Shown: positions 15,769 to 25,903, counted from the stretch's first letter. The stretch is DNA of 64,000 nt from Scenedesmus sp. PABB004 (GCA_014905635.1 JABVCE010000005.1:1178001-1242000); one strand, 5' to 3'. Program-made: numbers and translations. Notes: generated from the sequence alone by a model not told the origin.

Positions 15769-16749
15769 TCACCACGGTATCTCGGCGCCGTCGTAGCCGT
15801 ACCAGCGGCCGTTGAGCGGGCGGCCGTCCTCGAGCAGCGCCAGCAGGCCGGTGGTGCTTTCGTCGACTGTGACCCAGCCGGCGCCCCCGGTCATGTCCGT
15901 TTGCACGTAGCCGGGGTGCACGCACACGCAGTCGACCTGCTGGTCCCGCAGGTCGAGCGCGAGGGCCTTGTTGATGATGTTGAGCGCTGCCTTGGACGCC
16001 CTGCGCGCCGCCGACGCGCGCCCGCGCAGGTGTGCGGCCCAGCCTCCCGGGCAGCACGGCGGCGGCGCGCCGGCCAGCCGCCCGGGCAGCAGGGATGCCG
16101 GGCGGCGGCGCGCTGCGGCAGGCGGCCGCACCGGTAGGCGTAGCCGCCGGGCGTGACGGAGCTCACGGCGGCGTCGCCGTGGCTCGCCATCACGCTGCTC
16201 ACATTTACAACCAGGGATCCGGGCGGCCCCAGCAGGCCGTGCTTGAGCAGCTGCTGCACCACCAGGAACGGCCCGACCGCGTTGGTCTGGAACACGCTGC
16301 GCGCGGCGCCGAGCGGCGCGCGGCGGCGGCGTCGCAGGCGCGCGCGCGCACCGCACCGCTCAACCCCTGGCCGCCCCTCGCCCCGCGCCGCGCCCCCGCG
16401 CCGCGCCCCCGCGCCTGGTGAAGTCGTCGGCCTCGAACTCTGCGAGTGCCAGGCGGCGGCCGTAAACACCGGCGTTGTTGATCAGCACGTCAACATGCGG
16501 CGTGTGCGTGGACAGGCCCGCCGCCCACGCGGCGATGCTGCCCGGGACGGCCGTGTCGAGCTGCGTGAGCGTCAGCCGCCCGCCGTGCGCCGCCACCAGC
16601 GCCGCGAGCGACGGGTCGGCGTCGTCGGGGCTGCGCCGGCTGGTTGCAATCACGCGGTTGCCGCGCGCGAGCAGCTTCTCCACCAGGCCCCGCCCCACTC
16701 CCCTGCTGCCGCCCGTGACGACCACCGACTTGCCGGCGATCGGCGGCAT
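15769..16749 (-). CDS. Short-chain dehydrogenase/reductase (CsgA/C-factor-like), 3 exons
   Basis: VVVTGGSRGVG, VLINNAG, FQTNAVGP, NVSS, catalytic YR|ASK (YxxxK), HPGYVQTDM, C-terminal DGAEIPW. First intron has a GC donor (16414). Confidence 0.92.
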
Positions 16750-17164
16750 CGCGGGGCCAGCGGCGAGCGGCGGAGCGGGCCGGCGTGGCGGCCGCAGCAG
16801 CGCTGGGCGGCCTAGCTGGGAGGCCGACGCGCGGCAAGAAGCCGTTCGTCGCTGCTGCCGCCACGCCTCGGACTGCAGACGGGCAATTGGGGCGGCGGCG
16901 GCTGCGCGCCGCGGGGTGGAGCAGCGGCGCGCGAGCAGGTGCCGCCAGCGTCGTGACTGAACCGCGCTGCCAAGTGCCAGGGCGCCGGGTCGTGCGTCGT
17001 CGGGCCGACATTTCGTTCTCGTGTGAGCAGCCCCACCCGCCCGCTCTCCGCGCGCGCACGCCACTGCCCCGCAGCCCCGCCGCTCTCCTGCGCTCCCGCA
17101 GTCTGCTGCCCGCGCTCATTGGCGTCGGACAGACGCAGCAGGGCGCCCTCGACCCTCCGCGGGC

Positions 17165-18010
17165 ATGGCGGAGCAGCCGGCGGGCGGCGAGGCGGCAGCA
17201 GCAGCAGCGCCCGCCGATGCAGGCGTCCCGGCGCCCGCCCCGGCCGAGGAGGCGGCCGAGGTCAATCCCATGCTGCAGACCAGCCTCACGCGGCGCTTCC
17301 AGGGGCGCTTCAAGCCCATGGTGATGCCCACGTACGACCTGATCATGCAGGAGGACATGATGAACAACTGCGGCGTCCGCTCCGTCATCGCCGGCGTCAT
17401 GGGCGCCTGCCTGGGCGTCGCCTTCGGCGTCTTCACGGCCAGCTTAGACACCCAGGCGCGCGCGCGCGCCAGGGGGGCCGCCCGCCGCGGCGGGGCGCGG
17501 CGGCGCGGGGCACGGGGCGCCGCGCCGCGCGGCGGCCGCTGCCAACCCCCGCGCGCCGCCGCGCCGCCGCCGCGCGCAGGGCATCGACGCCGCGCCGCTC
17601 GGGGAGCCGGCCAAGCCGACGCGCGTGGTGCTGCGGGAGACGTGGATGCTGATGCGCGAGAAGAGCCGGAGCTACGCGAAGGGCTTTGGCGGCATGGGCC
17701 TGCTCTACAGCGGCACCGAGTGCGTCATCGAGCGCTACCGCGCGCGGCACGACGCCTGGAACGCGACGCTCGCCGGCTGCGCCACGGGCGGCCTCATGGC
17801 CACGCCGGGTGCGCGCGCGGCGGCGGGGGCGGGCGGGCAGGGCGCGCGCCGGGCGCGCGGCGCAGCCGGGCCGCGCGGCGCGGCCGAGCGCGCGCCGCCG
17901 CCGCCACGTCGCCCCCGCGCCGCGCAGGCGGCCCCAAGGCGATGTGCCTGGGCTGCGCGAGCTTCGCCGCGTTCTCGACCGCGATCGAGTACTTCACGGG
18001 CGGGCACTGA
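17165..18010 (+). CDS. TIM22: Mitochondrial inner-membrane translocase TIM22 (Tim17/22/23 family), 3 exons
   Basis: MNNCGVRSVIAGVMGACLGVAFGVF, SYAKGFGGMGLLYSGTECVIERYRARHDAWNATLAGCATGG, GPKAMCLGCASFAAFSTAIEYF. Intron 1 has a GC donor (17456). TGTAA at 18250. Confidence 0.92.
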   Translation: MAEQPAGGEAAAAAAPADAGVPAPAPAEEAAEVNPMLQTSLTRRFQGRFKPMVMPTYDLIMQEDMMNNCGVRSVIAGVMGACLGVAFGVFTASLDTQARARARGAARRGGARRRGARGAAPRGGRCQPPRAAAPPPRAGHRRRAARGAGQADARGAAGDVDADAREEPELREGLWRHGPALQRHRVRHRALPRAARRLERDARRLRHGRPHGHAGCARGGGGGRAGRAPGARRSRAARRGRARAAAATSPPRRAGGPKAMCLGCASFAAFSTAIEYFTGGH

Positions 18011-18306
18011 CAAAGAAGCTCACGCCCCGGTTGCCCTGCCGGGGCCGCGCCGCCCGCTGCCGCAGCCGCAGCAGCGCGCGACGGGTGCGGCAGCTGCAGG
18101 CGCAGCTGCGGAGCGCACCGCATTGACCGTGACCTGTTGGAGTTTTGGTTGTTGGACGCTGACGGCCGCGAGCGCTGCTGCCTATGCCGGCATGGGATCG
18201 CTCGGGGGGCTGCGGCTGCGCGTGCGGGCTGCTCCCAGGCGGCCGCTGCTGTAACGCGCGTCCCGCAAGCTCTCCGCGCAGCGTCGTTGCCCGCCCTCCC
18301 GCCCGC

Positions 18307-21300
18307 TCACAGCTCGTCGCGCCCCAGCTCGTCGCCGCCGCCCTCGCCGCCGCCCTCGCCGGCCTCGCCGCCCGCCGGCGGCACGAGGCGCAGCGTGCGC
18401 TGCGGCGGCGCGCCGTCGGCGCCCGGGTCCTCGTGGTAGAGCCCGACGTCATCCATGTCCATCACCGTGAACGCCGCCGCCTGCTCCTCCTCAATCAGCC
18501 GCGCGAGCTCCGCCAGCTCCGCCGCGTCCTCGGGCGACGCCTCGCCGCCGGCGGGGCCAGCGCCGGCGCCGGCGCCGTCGCCGCCGCCGCCCTCGGCCGC
18601 CGCCGCCGCCGCGGCCTCGCGCGCCGCCGCGCGCCCGCCCGCGCGCACGGTGCCGCCGGGCGGCAGCGGCGCCGCGCCGGCGCCGCCGCCGCCGCCGCCG
18701 CCGTCGGCGTCCTCGGCCGCGTAGTCGAGCGCGCCGCCGGGGTCGCCGCCGCCATACGCGGCGTCGTCGTCGTCGCCGTAGGCGTCGCCGCCGGGGCCGC
18801 CGCCATACTCCTCCTCCTCCTCGTCCTCGTCGCCGTAGCCAGAGTCAAAGTAGTGGTACGTGCCCTCGTGCGGCCGGAGGTCCATCACCACCGGCGACGC
18901 CGCCGCGGCGCCGGGGAGCAGCGCCGAGCCGGCGCCGCGGCGCGGCGCGGCCGCGGCGGCCGCGTGCGCCGTGTGCAGCTGCGCCGCCGCGGCGGCGGCC
19001 GCCGCGCTCGCCGCCGCGCGCTCGGGCTGCGCCGCGGCGGCGGCCTTGGCGCGGCTGAGCAGGCGGCTGGCGAGCCCCTCGCCCCGCGCACGCAGCGCCG
19101 CCTGGATGCGCTCCGCGCCAGTGGCGCCGAGCTCGTCCGGCGCCTCGAGGCCGCCCGCGGGGGGCGTCGCCGCCGCGGCGGCGGGCTCGCCATGCTCCGG
19201 CTCAACTGCGGCTGCCGCCGGCTCAGCTGCCGCTGCAGGCTCCTCCGCAGCCGGCTCCACAGCTGCCGGCGCGGCCGCTGCCGGCTCCTGTGCTGCTGAA
19301 CCTTCCACCACAGGCAGAGGAGGCTCCTGCGCCGCTGCTTGCACCTCGGCTGACGCGGCAGGCTCGGGGGCCAGCTCCTGCGCCGGCTCCGCTGCCGCCG
19401 GCTCGGTGGGCACGGCCGCCGGCTGCGAGGCTGCCGGCGGCGCCGCCTGTTCGAACGTTCCTGGCTCCGGCGCCAGGCCCCCAGCAGGCCCCTGCGGCAG
19501 CTCAGGCGCGCTCGGCTCGGGTGCTGCCGCGGGCTCCGTCGCTGTCGCAGGCTCTGGCGTTGCCGCGGGCTCGGGCGCCCACTGCTCTGGCGCTGCTGCA
19601 GGTTCCGGCGCCCGCTGCTCCAGCGCCCGCTGCTCCAGCGCAGCGGGCTCCGGCGCCCGCTGCTCCGGCGCTGCAGCGGGCTCCGGCGCCTGCTGCTGCG
19701 TCGCTGCCGCGGGCTCCAGGGCCTGCTGCTCCACCTCAGGTGCTGCTGGGGGCGGCTCCTGCCACGCCTCAGCGGGCGGCGCGTGCTCCCCGGGCAGCTC
19801 CGGCGGCTGCACAGCCGCCGCCTCCGCCGCAGGTGCGGCGGCCGTGTCAGCGGGCGCAGCCGGCTGCTCCTGCTGCCAGTCCGGCTCAGCACCGCCCGGC
19901 TGGGCGGGCACTGCCGCAGCTGCGGCCGCGGCGGCGGCCGCCGCGGCTGCCTGCTCAAGGCTCCCCCCGCTGGGCTCAGGCTCCTGCGGCTGCTGGTCCA
20001 CCGCAGCGTCCAGCGGCGCATGTTGCGAGGCCCCCTGAGCCTCGTGGCCAGGCTCCAGCTGCTCGCTCACGTGCTGTGGCGGCTGCATGTCGCTGGGCGC
20101 CGCCGCGTGCTCGCTGGGAGCCGCCGCGTGCTCTCCGGGCGCCGCCGTGTGCTCGCCGGGCGCCGCATGCTCTCCCGGCGCCGCCGCGTGCTCGCCGGTC
20201 GCCGCGTGCTCGCCGGGCGCCGCCGCGTGCTCGCCGGGCGCCACCGCGTGCTCACCGGGCGCCGCATGCTCTCCGGGCGCCGCCGCGTGCTCGCTGGGAG
20301 CCGCCACATGCTCGCTGGGCGCAGCTGCGTGGTCGCCGGCCGCCGCTGCGTGCTCGCTGGGCGCTGCCGCGTGGTCACCGGCCGCCGCTGCGTGCTCGCT
20401 GGGAGCCGCCGCGTGCTCTCCCGGCGCCGCCGCGTGCTCGCCGGTCGCCGCGTGCTCGCCGGGCGCCGCCGCGTGCTCGCCGGGCGCCGCCGCGTGCTCA
20501 CCGGGCGCCGCATGCTCTCCGGGCGCCGCCGCGTGCTCGCTGGGAGCCGCCACATGCTCGCTGGGCGCAGCTGCGTGGTCGCCGGCCGCCGCTGCGTGCT
20601 CGCTGGGCGCTGCCGCGTGGTCACCGGCCGCCGCTGCGTGCTCGCTGGGAGCCGCCGCGTGCTCTCCCGGCGCCGCCGCGTGCTCGCCGGTCGCCGCGTG
20701 CTCGCTGTGCGCCGCCGCTGCATGCTCGGCGGTCGCCGCGTGCTCGCTGTGCGCCGCTGCGTGCTCGCTGAGCGCCGCCACGTGCTCGCCGGGCGCCGCC
20801 GCGTGCGCTGGCTGCTCCCAAGCGTCCTGTGGCACCGATGCCGCAGGCTCCGGCTCGCTCGCCAGCGGCTGCGCCGGCGCAGCGTGGGGCTCGGGTGCAG
20901 GCATCGCATGCGGCGGCTGCTCGTGCGCTGCCTCTGCCAGCGGCGGCTGCTCCGGCGCGCCGCGCGCCGCCGCGTCAGGCTCCGCCTGCCCCGGCATGGA
21001 CAGCCTGAGCGCCTCCGCCGCTGCCTCCATCGCCGCGGCGGCCTGCATGGCGGCCGCCGTCGCGGCCGCCTCGGCGTGCACGCGCGCGGCCGCCGCGTGC
21101 TGCCGCTCCTCCTCCTCCTCCGCCGCGCCGGCGCGCACGAACTCGGCTTCGTCGGCATCCTCCTCCGTCGCCGCCGCCGCGCCCGCCTGGTCGCCCCACT
21201 CGCCGCCGTGCACGCCGGCCGCGCCGCCGGCCGCGCCGCCGGCCGGCGGCGGCGCCGCGTCGGGGTCCATGATGCCGAGTGCCGGCGGCGGCTGCTGCGG

Positions 21301-23331
21301 CTGCGGCGCCGCCCGCGCGGCGCCGCCGCGCGCGTCCCAGTGCGCGTCGCCGGGCGGGCCGTCGGGGGTGCCGCCGTAGCCCCGCTCCTCCTCCTCGTCC
21401 TCGGCGTCGGCGGCGGCGCCGTGCGGCGCCGCGCCCCCAACGGCGCCGGCGCCGTCGTGGCAGGCCGCGCCGGCGGGGCAGCCCCAGCCCTCGTCGGCGG
21501 GCGGCTGCTCCAGGTCCAGCGGCGGCGGCTGCTCGGGCTCGGGCGCGCGCTGCGGCGCCGCGGCGGCCGGGCGTGGCTCCGCCGCCTGCGGCGGCGTGCC
21601 CGGCGCGTCGCGCCACGCGTCCTGCGGCGGCGCCGGCCTGGCCGCCGCCGCGGCGGCCGCGTGCGCCGCCGCCTCCTGCTCCTTGAGGCGCTGCAGCCGC
21701 GGCGGCAGCAGCGAGCCGTCCGGCGCGCGCTGCCACGCCTTGCCGCCGGCGCGCTCGACGCGCGCGTGCCGCTCCGCGTCGAGCCACTCCGCCTCGGCGA
21801 ACGCGCCGCCGCCGGCGCCCTCCGCGCCGCCCTCAAAGTTCGCGTCCCACGCCGCCCACTCGTCCGGGTACGCGCCGCCGCCGCCACCGCCGCCGCCACC
21901 GCCGGCCCAGGGCTCGCCCGGCACAAACGCGCCGGGCGGCGGCGCGGCGGCGGCGTAGTCGGCGGCCGAGAAGGGCTGCCCGCCGTGGCGCATGTGCAGC
22001 AGGGTGTACAGGGGCTGCTTCATGAACGCCGGCGTGCGCTTGAACGAGATGTACGCCACGACCGCGAGGAAGAACGCAAAGCCGCCCCACATCGCAAACC
22101 TGGAGCGCCGCCGCGGGGAGGGCCGCCGCGGCGGTGGCGGCCGGGCGCGTGGGCGCGTGGGCGGGGGGGGGGGGGGGAGCAGGCGGGCGGGGCGCGGGCG
22201 CGAGGGCGCCGCGCCGGCGCCGGCGCCGGCAGCGTGGCGCACCGGTCCGCCATGCTCTGTGCCTTGATCGTGCCCAGCAGGCCGTGGCTCTGCTTGAACA
22301 CCGCGCGCTGCCCCGCGAGCTCGTCGCCGGCCTCGCCCAGGCGGCGGTTGCTGGCGGCTGCGCGCGCAGGGCGGGGCGGGCGCGGCGGCGCGGCGGGGGC
22401 GGTGCGGTGGGACGTGAGAGCGCGGCTGTGCCACCGCCAGCGTCGCCGCCTGCTGTTGCCTGCTGCCGCCTGGTGCAGCCTGCCCCGATGCCCGTGGCGC
22501 ACCAATGACTGAGATGTTGCCGTGCGTCTGCTCTAGGTTTTGGGCGATGAGCTGCTTGGTGCGGCGCAGGCTGGCGGTCACGTCCTGCGCGCCCTCCAGC
22601 GCCTCCTGCTCGCTCGCAAAGCGCTGCTGGCGCTGGCTGAAGTCCAGCGAGCCGATCAGCTCCTGGCGCTGCGGGCGCGCGCGCGGCGGCGCGGCGGCGC
22701 CGGCGCCGTGTGGGGATGCGCCGCGCGGGCTCCTGCGGTGGTGGCGGGCGCCGCGCTGCGCCGCGCCGCGCCGCGCCCCCCACCTGCTGCACGAACGACT
22801 GCTCCTTCCGCCGCGCAAACGAGATGCGCGCGTCCTGGAAGGCCTGGTGCGCCCTGCGCGCGGGCCGCGGCCGCGGGCGGCGGCGCGCTCGGCGCGGCCC
22901 GCATGCGCAGCGGCAGCGCCGCCGGCGGTTGCGACTCCGCCCCCACCTGTCGTACTCGGCCTGGTGGTGTGCCAGCACCGCCGCGACGCGCTGCGTCTGG
23001 TCCGGCCTGCGGGGAAGCCGGCGCGGGGCGCGTGAGGCGCGGGCCGCCCGCCGCCGGGCGGCGGTTGCGGCGGCAGCAGCAGCGGCGGCGCTCGCGCGCA
23101 CGTCTCCTGCTCCTCCGCAGCGTAGGCGAGGTCCTGCAGCGCCGAGCGGAGCCGCCGGAACGCCTCCTGCACGCGGGCCTCCAGCCCCGCCACCACGGCG
23201 CGCTGCACGCCCGCGTCCAGGGCGCCGAGCGCCGTGATGTCCTCCCAGGCGCCCGCCGTCAGCTGGCCGACGTGGCCGCTCAGCGCCGCCTCATAAGCGG
23301 GCAAGGGCGGCAGCTGCCCGCCGTTCTGCAT
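18307..23331 (-). CDS. SEC20: SEC20/BNIP1-like ER SNARE with a very long C-terminal (predicted luminal) low-complexity extension ending RDEL; 6 exons
   Basis: Spliced N-terminus contains RQELIG..AQDVTASLRRTKQLIAQNLEQTHGNISVI|AASNRRLGEAGDELAGQRAVFKQSHGLLGTIKAQSMADR (Sec20-type SNARE), then TM FAMWGGFAFFLAVVAYISFKR. Last exon 22099-18307 is open to ...GRDEL*. Confidence 0.8.
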   Translation of the reverse strand: MQNGGQLPPLPAYEAALSGHVGQLTAGAWEDITALGALDAGVQRAVVAGLEARVQEAFRRLRSALQDLAYAAEEQETCARAPPLLLPPQPPPGGGRPAPHAPRAGFPAGRTRRSASRRCWHTTRPSTTGGGGVATAGGAAAAHAGRAERAAARGRGPRAGRTRPSRTRASRLRGGRSSRSCSRWGARRGAAQRGARHHRRSPRGASPHGAGAAAPPRARPQRQELIGSLDFSQRQQRFASEQEALEGAQDVTASLRRTKQLIAQNLEQTHGNISVIGAPRASGQAAPGGSRQQQAATLAVAQPRSHVPPHRPRRAAAPAPPCARSRQQPPPGRGRRRARGAARGVQAEPRPAGHDQGTEHGGPVRHAAGAGAGAAPSRPRPARLLPPPPPPTRPRARPPPPRRPSPRRRSRFAMWGGFAFFLAVVAYISFKRTPAFMKQPLYTLLHMRHGGQPFSAADYAAAAPPPGAFVPGEPWAGGGGGGGGGGAYPDEWAAWDANFEGGAEGAGGGAFAEAEWLDAERHARVERAGGKAWQRAPDGSLLPPRLQRLKEQEAAAHAAAAAAARPAPPQDAWRDAPGTPPQAAEPRPAAAAPQRAPEPEQPPPLDLEQPPADEGWGCPAGAACHDGAGAVGGAAPHGAAADAEDEEEERGYGGTPDGPPGDAHWDARGGAARAAPQPQQPPPALGIMDPDAAPPPAGGAAGGAAGVHGGEWGDQAGAAAATEEDADEAEFVRAGAAEEEEERQHAAAARVHAEAAATAAAMQAAAAMEAAAEALRLSMPGQAEPDAAARGAPEQPPLAEAAHEQPPHAMPAPEPHAAPAQPLASEPEPAASVPQDAWEQPAHAAAPGEHVAALSEHAAAHSEHAATAEHAAAAHSEHAATGEHAAAPGEHAAAPSEHAAAAGDHAAAPSEHAAAAGDHAAAPSEHVAAPSEHAAAPGEHAAPGEHAAAPGEHAAAPGEHAATGEHAAAPGEHAAAPSEHAAAAGDHAAAPSEHAAAAGDHAAAPSEHVAAPSEHAAAPGEHAAPGEHAVAPGEHAAAPGEHAATGEHAAAPGEHAAPGEHTAAPGEHAAAPSEHAAAPSDMQPPQHVSEQLEPGHEAQGASQHAPLDAAVDQQPQEPEPSGGSLEQAAAAAAAAAAAAAVPAQPGGAEPDWQQEQPAAPADTAAAPAAEAAAVQPPELPGEHAPPAEAWQEPPPAAPEVEQQALEPAAATQQQAPEPAAAPEQRAPEPAALEQRALEQRAPEPAAAPEQWAPEPAATPEPATATEPAAAPEPSAPELPQGPAGGLAPEPGTFEQAAPPAASQPAAVPTEPAAAEPAQELAPEPAASAEVQAAAQEPPLPVVEGSAAQEPAAAAPAAVEPAAEEPAAAAEPAAAAVEPEHGEPAAAAATPPAGGLEAPDELGATGAERIQAALRARGEGLASRLLSRAKAAAAAQPERAAASAAAAAAAAQLHTAHAAAAAAPRRGAGSALLPGAAAASPVVMDLRPHEGTYHYFDSGYGDEDEEEEEYGGGPGGDAYGDDDDAAYGGGDPGGALDYAAEDADGGGGGGGAGAAPLPPGGTVRAGGRAAAREAAAAAAAEGGGGDGAGAGAGPAGGEASPEDAAELAELARLIEEEQAAAFTVMDMDDVGLYHEDPGADGAPPQRTLRLVPPAGGEAGEGGGEGGGDELGRDEL
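20091..20804 (-). repeat. Coding minisatellite: about 34 units of 18-24 bp encoding (E/D)HAAAP(G/S), with a 246-bp higher-order duplication
   Basis: Read directly from the sequence; the diagnostic variant cacatg recurs at 20305 and 20551 (246 bp = 12 units = 82 aa). Confidence 0.92.
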
Positions 23332-23612
23332 CGCGGCGCCTGCTCAGCGCAGTGCGCCCTGCTGTCCTGATGCTGCGAGCGTGCTCCAGCCCCGGGCGGT
23401 TGCCGCGCGGCCGCCCGATCCCGCGTACCCGGGTAGCTCTTACAGCGGCGGCCGGGGCGGCGAGCTGGCGGCGAGCCTGTTCCAGCGATGCGGCGGCGCA
23501 GCGGCGGCAGCAACCGCCGCGTCTCAGCGCAGCGCCGGCTGCCCGGTCACGCGGCCCTTGATGCCGGAGCCTCTCCCGCCGCCTGGCACTCGCACCTGCA
23601 GCCCCACTGCCC

Positions 23613-25903
23613 ATGGCGCTCGCCGCGCGCCGCCCGGCGCCGGCGGGTGCTGCTGCGGCCACGCTGCCGCGGGCCCGGCGCCAGCCGCGCCGCCGCCTGG
23701 CAGTGTCAGCGGCCGCACAGCCGCAGGCGCCACCATGCAGGCCGTCAGCGGCCGCTGCGCAGCCGGAGGCGCCAAGGCGGCCAGCGCTGGAGCCGCCGCC
23801 CTGCTACGACCGAGCCGCGGCGCGCGCGCTGGTGGCGCGGCAGCCGGCGCGGGCGGCGGCGCGCGTGCTGGAGCTCGCTGTCGCAGCGGCGCGGCTCGCG
23901 GCGCTGCCGCTGCGCCACGAGCGCGGCGGCGCGGCGTACGCGGCGGCGGCGCGCGGCACGGTGGCTGCGCTGGGACCGACGTGGGTCAAGGTTGCCCAGA
24001 CGCTGTCCATGCGCCCCGACGTCATCGGCGAGCCCCTCGCCGCGGCGCTCGCGGGCCTGCAGGAGGGCGCGCCGCCGTTTGACAGCGCCGCCGCGTTCGC
24101 CATCGTCACGCGCGAGCTCGGCGCGCCGCCGGAGGCGCTGTTTGCGGAGCTTTCGCCGCGCCCGGTCGCGTCGGCGTCGCTGTGCCAGGTGCACGCGGGC
24201 GTGCTCGCGTCCGACGGCCGCCGCGTCGCGGTCAAGGTGCAGCGCCCGGGGGTTTGGGCAAGCGTGCTGCTCGACCTCGGCCTGCTCGCGGCGGCGCTGG
24301 GCACGCTGCGGCGGGTCGCGCGCGTGCGGCAGGACATAACGCTCTGGGCGGACGCGCTCGGCGCCGGGCTCGCCGCGGAGCTCGACTTCGAGCACGAGGC
24401 GCGCAACCTGGAGCGCTTTGCGTCGGCGCACGCGCACCTCGGGTTCGTCACGACGCCGGCCGTGGTCTGGCGCTGCACGGGCACGCGCGTGCTGACGACG
24501 ACCTGGATCGACGGTGAAACGCCGGGCCAGCTCCTGCGGCGCGCGCGCGCCGAGCGCGGCGGCGCCGGCGCCGCCGGCCCCGGGGGCGGCGGCGCGCGCC
24601 CGGCCGCGGCGGCGCTGCTGGACCTCGTGGCCATGGGGCTCGACGCGAGCCTGTGCCAGCTGCTCGTCACGGGGGTGTTGCACGCCGACCCGCACGCCGG
24701 CAACTTCATGCTGACTCGTCACACGGGCCAGCTCGCATACCTGGATTTTGGACTGCTCGTCGACGTGCCGCCGCACGCGTCGCTGGTGCGCGGCGGCGGG
24801 GGCAGGGCGGCGCCGGCTGGCTGGCCGGGGGCAGGGCGGCGGCGAGGGCGCCGCGCCGGCGGCCGCGCGCTGCGGGCCCGCCCCAACCCCACCTCGGGGC
24901 CCCGCGCCGGCCGCAGGCGATGACGGCGGCGCTGCTGCACCTCGGGCTCGGTGACTGGCGGCGCCTCGCGGACGATCTGGGTGACATGGGGCTGCTGAAG
25001 GCAGCCACCGACCGCGACGCGCTCGCGGCCGACCTGCGCCGCCGCTTTGAGCAGCTCCCGGCGGGCGCGCCCGGGCGCGGCGGCCCCGGGGACGCGCCGC
25101 CGCCGTCGCTGCTGGCGCCGCGGCTGGGGTCGTACGGCGAGTTTGCGCGCGTGATCGCGTCGCTGTCGGTCGCGTACCGCTTTGAGCTGCCGCCGTATTA
25201 CACGTTGATCATCCGCTCGCTGTCCACGCTCGAGGGCTTTGCGCTGGCGGCCGACCCCGGCGCGGCGCAGCGCCTCGTGGGTGCTGCAGTGCGGGCGGTC
25301 GCGCGGCAGCTGCTCGCCGACGCGCGGCCCGGGGCGCAGCGGCTGCTGTCGCAGGTGTTGGCGGCGCCGGGCGGCGGCGGCGGCGGCGGCGGCGGCGGCC
25401 CGCTCAACCTGGCGCTCCTCGCGGAACTGCTGGAGCTTCTGCGCGAGCCGGCTCCGGGCGCCGGGGGCGGCCGGCGAGCAGCTGCAGCCGCGCCCGCGCC
25501 CCGGCAGCCAGTCGGCGCGTGGGCGGCGCTCGCGGCGTTCTCGCCGGCCGCGGTCGCGCGGCAGCTGCTGGCCGCGCCGCAGGCGGCCAACGTGCGGCGC
25601 GGGGTGGTTGAGCAGCTGGTCGCCTCGGCGTCGCGGCCCCGCCGGTGGCGAGCCCGGGGCGTGTGGGACGCGCTGCGCGCCGCCGCTGGCTGGCTGCGCG
25701 CCGCGGGGTGGGCAGGGCTCGCGCTGGCCGCGCAGCTGCTCGCCGCCACCGTCGCGGCCGCAGCGCGCGCGCGATGGCGAGGCAACCGACAAGCGTGCCC
25801 CCGTCAATCAACTGCCCGTTTCCAGGCCGGCGACGAGCTGGGACGCGCCCCATTCGGCAGTCCAGCGAACCGCGCCCCCGCACAACCGCCGCCGTCACGG
25901 TGA
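23613..25903 (+). CDS. ABC1/UbiB (ABC1K/COQ8-like) atypical kinase with probable organellar transit peptide
   Basis: LGPTWVKVAQTLSMRPD, PVASASLCQVH, VAVKVQRPG, ELDFEHEARN, LHADPHAGN, YLDFGL, FELPPYYTLIIRSLSTLEG. One intron 24786-24916. Confidence 0.92.

What the first reader, a model, noticed from the sequence alone, without database searches (positions are those of the whole stretch)
18307..22099. SEC20-like SNARE with a ~1,240-aa luminal tail ending in RDEL
Seen: after the SNARE motif and TM helix the same exon stays open for about 3.7 kb (acidic, A/P/E-rich) and ends GRDEL*. Established: SNAREs are normally tail-anchored with very short luminal parts; yeast Sec20p is an exception with a modest luminal domain ending HDEL. 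Inference: an extreme luminal expansion with a KDEL-receptor signal, which would need non-tail-anchor insertion and might act as an ER-lumen scaffold or sensor.
Basis: partly seen in the sequence, partly recalled or inferred. Interest (0 to 1): 0.72.

Follow-up and report, generated by a model that had tools for sequence, protein, structure and literature searches.

The report
Sec20 SNARE with giant lumenal tail
This is a green-alga version of the ER fusion protein Sec20 whose part inside the ER has grown to about 1,240 mostly disordered, acidic residues ending in the ER-retrieval signal RDEL; it is an extreme case of a design already reported for plant and fungal Sec20.

Summary
On the minus strand a six-exon gene (ATG 23331) ends in one 3.79-kb exon, 22099..18307. 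That exon reads one residue of the Sec20 domain, a TM helix, then 1,244 open codons ending GRDEL-TGA.

In DNA of about 80% GC, ORF length alone is weak evidence: the codon-aligned antisense frame is open for 1,052 aa. The stronger evidence is homology. Tetradesmus obliquus Sec20 (722 aa, Pfam Sec20 52.3 bits) matches every exon. Its own roughly 490-aa post-TM tail shares in-frame blocks with ours at both ends: 68% identity over the first 136 aa, and a C-terminal helix motif. It ends HTEL, or HTDL in a second strain.

The extra length here is a lineage-specific low-complexity insert of about 700 aa. It includes a 35-copy 21-bp (heptad) His/Glu array. AlphaFold2 predicts disorder apart from the TM helix, a juxtamembrane helix and one C-terminal helix.

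The design itself is in print: Sec20 C-termini over 100 residues with KDEL/RDEL/HDEL "in many plants and fungi" (PMC13748404). What is new is the extreme size.

No RNA data could be obtained, so in-frame splicing of part of the middle is not excluded.

The parts
23102..23331 (-). Exon 1 (ATG at 23331..23329). N-terminal cytosolic domain of Sec20.
   Evidence: tblastn of T. obliquus Sec20 P0006 residues 1-78 onto 23331..23101, 54% identity. The donor GT at 23101-23100 was read.
22947..23006 (-). Exon 2
   Evidence: P0006 residues 79 onward align from 23005. The acceptor CAG|G and donor AG|GT were read.
22784..22853 (-). Exon 3
   Evidence: P0006 residues up to 121 align up to 22784. Splice sites were read.
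22503..22668 (-). Exon 4: start of the Sec20/SNARE domain
   Evidence: 88% identity to P0006 121-178. Pfam Sec20 profile positions 3-29, 13.4 bits. 18 of 37 candidate proteins matched at E<=0.01, all Sec20-like fragments or models.
22243..22357 (-). Exon 5: rest of the Sec20/SNARE domain
   Evidence: 63% identity to P0006 177-217. Pfam Sec20 profile positions 33-70, 13.4 bits.
18307..22099 (-). Last exon: 1,263 codons plus TGA stop (18307..18309). Contains the TM helix and the whole lumenal tail.
   Evidence: Open frame. Coding-type GC periodicity throughout. Conserved blocks at both ends.
22042..22098 (-). Transmembrane helix (19 residues)
   Evidence: Kyte-Doolittle 19-aa mean 1.89, the only window above 1.6 in the exon. 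AlphaFold2 helix 2-21, pLDDT about 90. Pfam Sec20 profile positions 70-91, 16.4 bits.
21649..22041 (-). Conserved juxtamembrane lumenal block A (tail residues 20-150 of the exon)
   Evidence: 68% identity over 136 aa to P0006 (E 8e-57). Found in 10 of the 13 hits of an exhaustive phmmer search of 1.84 billion representatives. Nine nearly invariant residues in a 13-sequence alignment. No Pfam family. Mostly low pLDDT apart from helix 24-34.
21109..21648 (-). Block B: low-complexity stretch with short motifs shared with T. obliquus (a W-G-C...C-H pair, an ALGI-x-DPDAA motif, an EEDADE-x-E motif)
   Evidence: Continuous tblastn alignment 22101..21013, 43% over 383 columns, E 8.6e-74. Blocks listed.
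18844..21003 (-). Variable middle (exon residues about 366-1085): Ala/Pro/Glu/His low-complexity sequence, largely absent from the T. obliquus orthologue
   Evidence: MAFFT alignment gives P0002-only stretches 385-423 and 519-1194. 0 stops in frame, against 2, 15, 2, 2 and 2 in the other frames. Relaxed codon usage: GCA+GCT 22% against 0-3% in the ends.
20082..20806 (-). Tandem array: 21-bp unit x 35 (heptads such as AAAPGEH / AAAPSEH / AAAAGDH), nested in a 246-bp unit x 2.9 (91% matches)
   Evidence: TRF scores 795 and 1155. Unit counts. 38 His and 36 Asp+Glu, with 0 Lys+Arg, in residues 431-680.
19492..19732 (-). Second set of in-frame tandem repeats (15- and 33-bp units; P/E/A-rich)
   Evidence: TRF.
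18415..18516 (-). Conserved C-terminal motif (helix, then a VMDMDDVGLYH-like stretch)
   Evidence: 22 of 35 identical to both T. obliquus strains. BLASTP 48% over 60 aa, E 2e-12. AlphaFold2 helix 109-131 of the 183-aa fragment, pLDDT about 80-85.
18310..18321 (-). C-terminal tetrapeptide RDEL (candidate ERD2/KDEL-receptor retrieval signal)
   Evidence: Translation. RDEL is named as a Sec20 variant of KDEL in PMC13748404.

Best explanation
The gene encodes the orthologue of Sec20, the Qb-SNARE of the ER target complex for Golgi-to-ER retrograde vesicles.

It is built as a type II membrane protein of about 1,477 aa:
- Five short exons give the cytosolic N-domain and the Sec20/SNARE domain (214 aa).
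- One 3.79-kb exon gives the single TM helix and a 1,244-aa ER-lumenal extension.

The extension is acidic (pI about 4.4) and intrinsically disordered. It carries a few conserved elements: a juxtamembrane block of about 130 aa, several short motifs, and one C-terminal amphipathic helix. It ends in RDEL.

Inferred mechanism:
- The TM helix emerges with more than 1,200 codons still to be translated. It therefore acts as a signal-anchor inserted co-translationally (SRP/Sec61), not through the tail-anchor (GET/TRC40) route.
- Molecules that escape to the Golgi are returned by the KDEL receptor ERD2 through RDEL, as shown for yeast Sec20p-HDEL.

The exceptional length comes from lineage-specific, in-frame expansion of low-complexity and minisatellite sequence between the conserved blocks. 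This middle part is most likely a weakly constrained spacer rather than a folded functional domain.

Shown here: gene structure, Sec20 orthology, open frame, conserved blocks at both ends, repeat anatomy, predicted disorder.
Inferred, not shown: expression of the uninterrupted exon, topology, insertion route, ERD2 retrieval.
For: Sec20 identity:
- Exon 4 found 18 of 37 candidates at E<=0.01. These include T. obliquus WIA13039.1 (P0006, 722 aa, precomputed PF03908) at 89% identity.
- P0006 scores 52.3 bits on Pfam Sec20 (cut-off 27).
- All six exons align collinearly to it.
- Exon 4, exon 5 and the start of the last exon match Sec20 profile positions 3-29, 33-70 and 70-91.

Long tail is real coding sequence:
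- P0006 itself has about 490 aa after the TM.
- Ours matches it at 68% over the first 136 aa (E 8e-57) and at 48% over 60 aa near the C-terminus (E 2e-12), in the same frame 1,195 codons apart.
- tblastn gives one continuous alignment 22101..21013 (E 8.6e-74).
- GC2 stays at 0.58-0.72, with high GC1 and GC3, along the whole exon.
- All 8 TRF rows (score >=80) inside the exon have periods divisible by 3, against 29 of 53 elsewhere in the window.
- The two T. obliquus strains differ in the tail only by substitutions and whole-codon indels.

Retrieval signal:
- Ours ends RDEL. T. obliquus ends HTEL or HTDL.
- PMC13748404 states that long Sec20 C-termini in many plants and fungi carry KDEL/RDEL/HDEL.

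Disorder:
- pTM 0.24 and 0.25. Confident helices only at the TM, the juxtamembrane segment and the C-terminal motif.
- No Pfam family in block A or the C-terminal 183 aa.

Expansion:
- A 21-bp x 35 array nested in a 246-bp x 2.9 array at 91% matches.
- About 700 aa have no counterpart in P0006.
Against: - No transcript evidence could be obtained.
- The middle region (residues about 331-1080) uses codons differently from the conserved ends: GCA+GCT 22% against 0-3%, and GGC 54% against 88-96%. Its GC3 is 0.74-0.87 against 0.96-0.98.
- Copies of the 246-bp repeat differ by 1 synonymous and 9 non-synonymous codons, with changes spread 6/6/6 over the codon positions. No purifying selection is visible.
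- Seven donor-like sites (GTG[CG]G[CG], the form of all five real donors) lie in the exon. The one at residue 321 has in-frame acceptor-like partners at residues 1000, 1025 and 1041.
- GC periodicity cannot separate the sense frame from the codon-aligned antisense frame, which is open for 1,052 aa.
- The orthologue models are themselves gene predictions. A third T. obliquus annotation (P0035, 214 aa) stops before the TM.
- HTEL/HTDL in T. obliquus are not canonical, and they vary between strains. Selection on the tetrapeptide may therefore be weak there.
Confidence: 0.72

Rival explanations
1. Same Sec20 gene, but part of the low-complexity middle is removed from the mature mRNA by one or more in-frame introns. 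The real tail would then be about 500-600 aa, like that of T. obliquus, and would still end RDEL.
For: - The orthologue lacks about 700 aa of the middle.
- Codon usage and GC3 are relaxed there.
- There is no selection signal between repeat copies.
- The donor-like site at residue 321 shares its first eight bases (GTGCGCGC) with the intron-1 donor. It has in-frame acceptor-like sites 2,037, 2,112 and 2,160 nt downstream.
- The other frames carry only 2 stops in these 720 codons, so zero stops by chance is not extreme.
Against: - The five real introns are about 95-145 bp. A 2-kb intron would be an outlier in this gene.
- Similarity to P0006 continues about 40 residues past the residue-321 donor: the tblastn alignment runs to 21013, and V-R aligns with I-R.
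- GC1/GC2 periodicity in frame persists through non-repetitive parts of the middle.
- All tandem-repeat periods there are multiples of 3, whereas repeats in this gene's introns have periods 15, 28, 17, 20 and 5.
- The frame is open for all 720 codons, with 5.6 stops expected from base composition.
Confidence: 0.2
2. The tail is a functional lumenal module, not a spacer. It would be a high-capacity, low-affinity divalent-cation (Ca2+, Zn2+ or Ni2+) buffer or scaffold, tethered to the ER fusion SNARE through its acidic and His/Glu-heptad sequence.
For: - D+E 198 against K+R 44; pI 4.38.
- 38 His and 36 Asp/Glu, with no Lys or Arg, in the 250-aa heptad array.
- A more distant relative (P0026, 50% identity in block A) carries its own His/Asp/Glu/Arg-rich insert at a different position. 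His-plus-acidic low complexity therefore recurs in this family.
- From recall, not from any call: acidic ER/SR-lumenal Ca2+ buffers, namely the calreticulin C-domain ending KDEL, calsequestrin, and histidine-rich Ca-binding protein.
Against: - The middle is not conserved in T. obliquus, whose corresponding part is Gln-rich.
- Repeat copies show no purifying selection, and codon usage is relaxed.
- No family or fold match was found.
- Composition alone does not demonstrate metal binding.
Confidence: 0.1
3. Chance ORF: the CDS really ends soon after the TM through an unrecognised splice or poly(A) site, and the 3.7 kb is non-coding GC-rich DNA that happens to lack stops.
For: - In DNA of about 80% GC, long ORFs occur in all frames: 1,052, 650, 570 and 446 aa in the same stretch.
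- One annotation of T. obliquus (P0035) and one of Scenedesmus sp. (P0007, 255 aa) give short products.
Against: - Amino-acid conservation with T. obliquus continues for over 360 residues after the TM and reappears at residues 1195-1228, in the same frame.
- P0035 lacks the TM altogether and reads into an intron. P0007 still contains 100 or more conserved post-TM residues.
- 0 of 2,000 shuffles stayed open.
Confidence: 0.03
4. The heptad array encodes a plus-strand (antisense) protein related to the grass antifreeze beta-roll.
For: The antisense ORF 19354..22512 (1,052 aa) scores 66 bits, E 3.4e-18, on PF21300 LbR_Ice_bind (cut-off 30) at its residues 285-356, which lie inside the heptad array. 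In the middle region GC1 exceeds GC3 on the minus strand, so the plus-strand codon-aligned frame has the more usual GC3 maximum.
Against: - The sense translation of the same array also hits PF21300 (18.6 bits). The match therefore follows the 7-residue period, not a particular sequence.
- The antisense ORF runs across the Sec20 TM exon, block A, intron 5 and exon 5, where homology shows that the minus strand is the coding one.
- It is the codon-aligned shadow frame expected opposite a GC-rich CDS.
- The product would be an Arg/Leu/Gly/Cys repeat.
Confidence: 0.02

Closest known systems
Saccharomyces cerevisiae Sec20p (Sweet & Pelham 1992, EMBO J 11:423). Only the title was seen, in reference lists; the paper itself is not held.
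   Same: [quoted passage not shown]
   Different: From recall, the yeast lumenal part is roughly 90 aa and glycosylated. Here the tail is 1,244 aa, has no N-X-S/T sequon, and ends RDEL rather than HDEL. No sequence comparison with yeast Sec20p was made here.
Plant and fungal Sec20 proteins with C-termini over 100 residues carrying KDEL, RDEL or HDEL (PMC13748404, Traffic 2026, section 2.4; passages read)
   Same: The same architecture: Sec20 domain, TM, long lumenal extension, K/R/HDEL-type end.
   Different: The length is about ten times the stated '>100 residues'. The extension contains large tandem-repeat arrays. The paper's supplements were not examined, so its longest case is unknown to me.
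Tetradesmus obliquus hypothetical proteins WIA13039.1 and WIA33187.1 (722 aa; UniRef name 'Sec20 C-terminal domain-containing protein')
   Same: An orthologue. All exons align, at 54-88% in the cytosolic part. Block A is 68% identical. The short motifs and the C-terminal helix motif are shared.
   Different: The tail is about 490 aa, not 1,244. The middle is Gln-rich rather than Ala/Pro/Glu/His-rich. It ends HTEL or HTDL instead of RDEL.
Human BNIP1/Sec20 and typical tail-anchored SNAREs
   Same: The same SNARE family and ER role (PMC13748404).
   Different: Human Sec20 extends about 4 residues beyond the membrane (PMC13748404). This protein has 1,244, so it fails the defining feature of a tail-anchored protein.
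Acidic ER/SR-lumenal Ca2+ buffers (calreticulin C-domain, calsequestrin, histidine-rich Ca-binding protein). Recalled; functional analogy only.
   Same: Lumenal location inferred, strongly acidic low-complexity sequence, His-plus-acidic repeats, and a KDEL-type end (as in calreticulin).
   Different: No sequence or fold relationship was detected. Cation binding is untested. This tail is membrane-anchored to a SNARE.

Membership tests
Sec20 (Pfam PF03908; Qb-SNARE of the ER retrograde complex) | Match to the Sec20 profile above the gathering score (27 bits) | tested here: inconclusive
   The window's protein could only be scanned exon by exon or as an unspliced read-through. Exon 4 gave 13.4 bits (profile 3-29), exon 5 gave 13.4 bits (33-70), and the TM start of the last exon gave 16.4 bits (70-91). 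Each is below 27 bits, but they are collinear and together cover profile positions 3-91 of 92. The spliced protein was not scanned as one piece.
Sec20 (Pfam PF03908; Qb-SNARE of the ER retrograde complex) | Orthology to a protein that does pass the family threshold | tested here: met
   T. obliquus P0006 scores 52.3 bits on PF03908 at residues 148-236. Those residues align to window exon 4 (88%), exon 5 (63%) and the last exon (68% over 136 aa).
Sec20 (Pfam PF03908; Qb-SNARE of the ER retrograde complex) | Single TM helix directly after the SNARE-like domain | tested here: met
   One hydrophobic 19-mer (Kyte-Doolittle 1.89) at the start of the last exon, and no second one in 1,263 residues. 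AlphaFold2 helix 2-21 at pLDDT about 90.
Sec20 (Pfam PF03908; Qb-SNARE of the ER retrograde complex) | Qb-type heptad layers and zero-layer residue; assembly with Ufe1/Syntaxin-18, Use1 and Sec22; binding of Tip20/Dsl1 | not tested
   No layer assignment or complex prediction was made, and partner genes are not in the window.
Sec20 subtype with long lumenal C-terminus and K/H/RDEL (yeast, many plants and fungi) | More than 100 residues after the TM | tested here: met
   1,244 residues follow the TM in one open frame. At least the first 365 or so and the last 70 or so are supported by homology.
Sec20 subtype with long lumenal C-terminus and K/H/RDEL (yeast, many plants and fungi) | C-terminal KDEL-type tetrapeptide | tested here: met
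   The protein ends RDEL, followed by TGA. RDEL is named for Sec20 in PMC13748404.
Sec20 subtype with long lumenal C-terminus and K/H/RDEL (yeast, many plants and fungi) | Actual retrieval by ERD2 and lumenal orientation of the C-terminus | not testable with these tools
   Needs localisation, protease-protection and RDEL-deletion experiments.
Tail-anchored membrane proteins (GET/TRC40 clients) | TM helix at the extreme C-terminus, followed by only a short segment (a few tens of residues at most; established knowledge) | tested here: not met
   1,244 residues follow the TM.
Grass antifreeze beta-roll (PF21300), antisense ORF 19354..22512 | A profile match that is specific to one reading rather than to the repeat period | tested here: not met
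   The antisense frame scores 66 bits, but the sense frame of the same array also matches (18.6 bits). The ORF lies opposite exons that homology shows to be coding.

The most novel reading that the evidence does not exclude
The 1,244-aa tail is fully translated and is the largest lumenal domain reported for any SNARE. Its His/Glu heptad array and acidic tracts act as a membrane-tethered, RDEL-retrieved divalent-cation buffer or condensate-forming scaffold. This would link ER-lumen ion or protein chemistry to the sites where retrograde vesicles fuse.
Probability: 0.1. Interest if true: 0.6.

Novelty: new variant of a known kind. Interest (0 to 1): 0.35.

Why it matters
Textbooks treat SNAREs as tail-anchored proteins, and Sec20 is the family that breaks this rule. 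This locus shows how far the exception can go. A SNARE with more than 1,200 residues behind its TM helix must use the co-translational signal-anchor route and a lumenal retrieval signal.

The locus also defines conserved lumenal elements shared among scenedesmacean-type green algae: a juxtamembrane block of about 130 aa and a C-terminal helix motif, neither with a Pfam family. These may mark an unknown lumenal partner of Sec20.

There are two practical lessons:
- Annotators of very GC-rich algal genomes cannot use ORF length or GC periodicity alone to tell sense from antisense or exon from intron.
- Existing annotations of this gene in relatives disagree widely (214, 255 and 722 aa).

If the middle proves to be a neutral repeat expansion, the finding is mainly a curiosity about tolerance of disordered inserts in the ER lumen.

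Tried and rejected
- RNA evidence: the look-up of sequencing runs on 17900..23500 (kind rna) listed no run. Read laying could therefore not be used. This is not evidence either way.
- Own genome: none is held for this window.
- Earlier scan notes: none for this genome.
- Homologue search with the C-terminal 84 aa (lengths 'longer'): 5,439 candidates, none at E<=0.01. Low-complexity words probably crowd out relatives; even P0006 was not recovered.
- Homologue search with P0006 (lengths 'near'): only P0006 itself among 7,999 scored candidates. This is uninformative about how widespread long tails are.
- ESM Atlas with TM plus block A: no usable hit.
The narrower alignment A2 gave 1 confirmed locus out of 276 pattern matches (L001, a 1,694-nt contig). 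It is cut about 130 nt after the match, so it says nothing about tail length.
- PDB sequence searches: P0006 gave only 2 weak chance-level hits (E 0.094 and 0.49). P0002 gave 2 repeat-driven hits in the heptad array: BpaC adhesin fusion (E 1e-7) and SF3A2 (E 0.0086). Neither is taken as homology.
- Fold search was not run, because both AlphaFold2 models are low-confidence (pTM 0.24 and 0.25).
- Synonymous versus non-synonymous test between 246-bp repeat copies: 1 against 9, no coding signal. It was kept as evidence against, not discarded.
- Three of the 13 phmmer hits (P0023, P0025, P0031; 928-3,294 aa; 6-16 matched stretches) were set aside unseen as low-complexity matches.
- Dispersed-repeat check: blastn of 18844..21003 against the window gave 63 of 104 HSPs outside the exon. 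The ten best-scoring of these all start from query positions 45-223, a GC-rich Ala-tract stretch, and not from the heptad array.
- Literature: five searches. None of the listed papers combining Sec20 with Scenedesmus, Tetradesmus, Monoraphidium or Raphidocelis actually contained 'Sec20'. Sweet & Pelham 1992 is not held. The plant SNARE phylogeny PMC7573729 says nothing on lumenal tails: 0 occurrences of 'luminal'.
Full report
**1. What is in the sequence**

The window is extremely GC-rich around the finding, 72-85% in 500-nt windows. On the minus strand there is a stop-to-stop frame of 1,678 codons, 23343..18307. Read through, it mixes exons and introns.

I read the DNA and aligned the Tetradesmus obliquus protein P0006 to the window with tblastn. 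Together these give a six-exon gene:
- exon 1, 23331..23102 (ATG at 23331)
- exon 2, 23006..22947
- exon 3, 22853..22784
- exon 4, 22668..22503
- exon 5, 22357..22243
- last exon, 22099..18307

All five introns are short (about 95-145 nt). Their donors have the form GTG[CG]G[CG], and their acceptors the form [CG]CAG.

The last exon (P0002) supplies the third base of an Arg codon, a 19-residue hydrophobic helix, and then 1,244 further residues ending ...GDELGRDEL. TGA follows at 18309..18307. The spliced product would be 1,477 aa; this count is mine, from the exon coordinates. The only slip is that the SNARE-like domain lies in exons 4-5, not in the last exon.

**2. Is the open frame more than chance?**

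Not on length alone.
- 0 of 2,000 mononucleotide shuffles stayed open for 1,263 codons (median 85.5). One shuffle reached 1,052.
- The real sequence has only 2-18 stops in its other five frames. The codon-aligned antisense frame is open for 1,052 aa stop-to-stop.
- Position-specific GC content is coding-like along the entire exon in the claimed frame: GC1 0.84-0.96, GC2 0.58-0.72, GC3 0.74-0.98. It breaks up in the intron-containing upstream part. However, this pattern is mirror-symmetric, so it cannot by itself separate sense from the codon-aligned antisense frame.

**3. Homology decides it**

Exon 4 (55 aa) retrieved 18 proteins at E<=0.01 among 37 candidates. These include T. obliquus WIA13039.1 (P0006, 722 aa, Pfam Sec20) and a 255-aa model from Scenedesmus sp. 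NREL 46B-D3.

P0006 scores 52.3 bits on PF03908 (cut-off 27). The window's exon 4, exon 5 and TM segment match profile positions 3-29, 33-70 and 70-91, at 13.4, 13.4 and 16.4 bits. Each piece is below threshold, but they are collinear.

P0006 itself has about 490 residues after its TM helix, and ours matches them in frame:
- 68% identity over the first 136 residues (E 8e-57).
- One continuous tblastn alignment from 22101 to 21013 (43% over 383 columns, E 8.6e-74).
- Several short shared motifs.
- 1,195 codons into the exon, a block with 22 of 35 identical residues (BLASTP 48% over 60 aa, E 2e-12).

A CDS that ended soon after the TM cannot explain a conserved block, in the same frame, 3.6 kb downstream.

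A second T. obliquus strain (P0034) differs from P0006 in the tail only by substitutions and whole-codon indels. That fits coding constraint there as well.

**4. How widespread is the lumenal block?**

I ran an exhaustive phmmer search with the TM plus the first 131 lumenal residues against 1.84 billion representatives. It found only 13 proteins at E<=0.001.
- Three are giant multi-stretch low-complexity matches, which I set aside without inspecting them.
- The other ten are fragments of algal Sec20 last exons.
  - Two are at 71-75% identity.
  - One more distant relative (P0026, 50%) carries its own His/Asp/Glu/Arg-rich insert.
  - Six of the other seven (P0024, P0027-P0030, P0033) keep the TM helix and at least part of a strongly conserved juxtamembrane stretch before diverging. 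The remaining fragment (P0032) diverges soon after it.
- There are nine nearly invariant residues in the 13-sequence alignment.

Neither block A nor the C-terminal 183 aa has a Pfam family.

**5. Anatomy of the tail**

Composition:
- Ala 31.6%, Pro 13.1%, Gly 11.6%, Glu 11.6%, His 4.8%
- D+E 198 against K+R 44; pI 4.38
- two Cys
- no N-glycosylation sequon
- no second hydrophobic segment

AlphaFold2 on TM plus block A (13-sequence alignment) gives pLDDT 62 and pTM 0.24. Only the TM helix and a juxtamembrane helix (residues 24-34) are confident. On the last 183 residues (3 sequences) it gives pLDDT 54 and pTM 0.25, with one confident helix exactly at the conserved C-terminal motif. The tail is therefore best described as intrinsically disordered, with a few conserved linear elements.

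Between residues about 366 and 1085 lies sequence with no clear counterpart in T. obliquus; MAFFT gives P0002-only stretches 385-423 and 519-1194. This region contains:
- a 21-bp x 35 array (heptads such as AAAPGEH, AAAPSEH, AAAAGDH), nested in a 246-bp x 2.9 array at 91% matches, 20082..20806
- 15- and 33-bp arrays at 19492..19732

All 8 TRF rows with score >=80 inside the exon have periods divisible by 3, against 29 of 53 elsewhere in the window. Arrays in this gene's own introns have periods 15, 28, 17, 20 and 5. The rows overlap, so this is modest support for coding constraint.

**6. Evidence against an uninterrupted 1,263-codon exon**

- The middle has relaxed codon usage: GCA+GCT 22% of Ala codons against 0-3% in the ends, and GGC 54% against 88-96%. 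Its GC3 is also lower.
- The 246-bp copies differ by 1 synonymous and 9 non-synonymous codons, spread evenly over the codon positions.
- Seven donor-like sites occur in the exon. That is about what base composition predicts (my estimate).
- One donor-like site, at residue 321, shares its first eight bases (GTGCGCGC) with the intron-1 donor. It has in-frame acceptor-like sites at residues 1000, 1025 and 1041. Using it would give a tail close in size to that of T. obliquus.

Against that reading:
- Similarity to P0006 continues about 40 residues past that donor.
- Such an intron would be about 15 times longer than the gene's other introns.
- The frame is open for all 720 middle codons, with 5.6 stops expected from base composition and 2, 15, 2, 2 and 2 observed in the other frames.

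No RNA run could be listed, so this stays open. I put about 0.7 on the whole exon being translated, about 0.2 on partial in-frame splicing, and well over 0.9 on a long RDEL-terminated lumenal tail of at least several hundred residues.

**7. The antisense ORF**

The 1,052-aa plus-strand ORF (19354..22512) scores 66 bits on PF21300, the 'grass antifreeze beta roll'. I treat this as a repeat-period artefact, for three reasons:
- The sense translation of the same array also hits that family (18.6 bits).
- The ORF is the codon-aligned shadow of a GC-rich CDS.
- It runs across exons whose minus-strand coding is shown by homology.

**8. How it most likely works**

Sec20 is the Qb-SNARE of the ER complex that receives Golgi-derived retrograde vesicles (roles summarised in PMC7573729 and PMC13748404).

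With 1,244 residues after the TM helix, the protein fails the defining feature of tail-anchored proteins. By inference from established targeting rules, it must insert co-translationally as a type II signal-anchor.

The RDEL end would let the KDEL receptor return escaped molecules, as the title of Sweet & Pelham 1992 states for yeast Sec20p and HDEL. I saw only the citation; the paper itself is not held.

The conserved juxtamembrane block and the C-terminal helix motif are candidates for lumenal interactions. The repeat-rich middle looks like a tolerated, fast-evolving spacer.

A cation-buffer role for the acidic, His-rich tail is an attractive analogy to calreticulin, calsequestrin and histidine-rich Ca-binding protein. 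This analogy is recalled, not tested, and rests on composition only. It is weakened by the lack of conservation of the middle.

**9. Comparison with what is known, and novelty**

PMC13748404 (Traffic 2026, section 2.4; passages read) states that human Sec20 extends about four residues beyond the membrane. [quoted passage not shown] The architecture is therefore known.

What I did not find in print is a Sec20, or any SNARE, with a lumenal part of this size, or a description of the conserved algal lumenal blocks. None of the listed papers combining Sec20 with Sphaeropleales genus names actually contained 'Sec20'. I did not examine the supplements of PMC13748404, which may list long cases.

Existing annotations of the orthologue disagree: 722, 255 and 214 aa.

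I file this as a new variant of a known kind, of moderate interest.

**10. Verdict**

- Observation: confirmed.
- Interpretation: partly supported.
- Interest: 0.35.

Noticed in passing
window 19354..22512 (+): The codon-aligned antisense ORF of 1,052 aa scores 66 bits (E 3.4e-18) on Pfam PF21300 'grass antifreeze beta roll', inside the heptad array. The sense frame also hits it weakly (18.6 bits). I judge this a repeat-period artefact. It shows how a tandem heptad can pass a curated Pfam threshold.
   Followed up: partly
window 17900..18310: A convergent plus-strand ORF ends near 18003-18010. Only about 300 bp separate the two stop codons. By eye, a plus-strand TGTAA lies at 18250..18254, and there is no minus-strand TGTAA between 18306 and 17900. 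The 3' UTRs of the two genes probably overlap. Pfam gave no family for the unspliced plus-strand ORF 17027..18010 at E<=0.01.
   Followed up: no
window 23562..24923 (+): An ABC1 atypical-kinase domain (PF03109, 174 bits) is encoded divergently from the Sec20 gene. Its open frame begins about 230 bp from the Sec20 ATG, so the two genes may share a promoter region.
   Followed up: no
window 15769..17115 (-): A short-chain dehydrogenase gene in at least two exons: adh_short profile positions 1-102 in ORF 16360..17115, and positions 150-188 in ORF 15769..16359.
   Followed up: no
P0006 versus P0034 (T. obliquus, two strains): The C-terminal tetrapeptide differs between strains, HTEL against HTDL. 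Both are non-canonical compared with RDEL in the window. Whether ERD2 reads either one is unknown.
   Followed up: no
P0026 (431 aa, ENA metagenome protein): A more distant relative of lumenal block A (50% identity) carries a long His/Asp/Glu/Arg/Pro-rich insert right after block A, a different position from the window's insert. Independent His-plus-acidic expansions seem to recur in this Sec20 tail.
   Followed up: partly
P0035 (214 aa) and P0007 (255 aa): Public gene models of the orthologue are truncated. P0035 reads into the intron before the TM exon and lacks the TM. P0007 breaks off about 120 residues into the tail. These are probably annotation errors in GC-rich algal genomes.
   Followed up: partly
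window 20082..20806, as protein residues 478-674 of P0002: The heptad array gives weak PDB sequence hits to other heptad-repeat proteins: BpaC adhesin fusion (E 1e-7) and splicing factor SF3A2 (E 0.0086). This is repeat-driven, not homology.
   Followed up: no
L001 1306..1566: A 1,694-nt metagenome contig encodes the TM helix plus about 90 residues of block A at 67% identity. The contig ends about 130 nt later.
   Followed up: no
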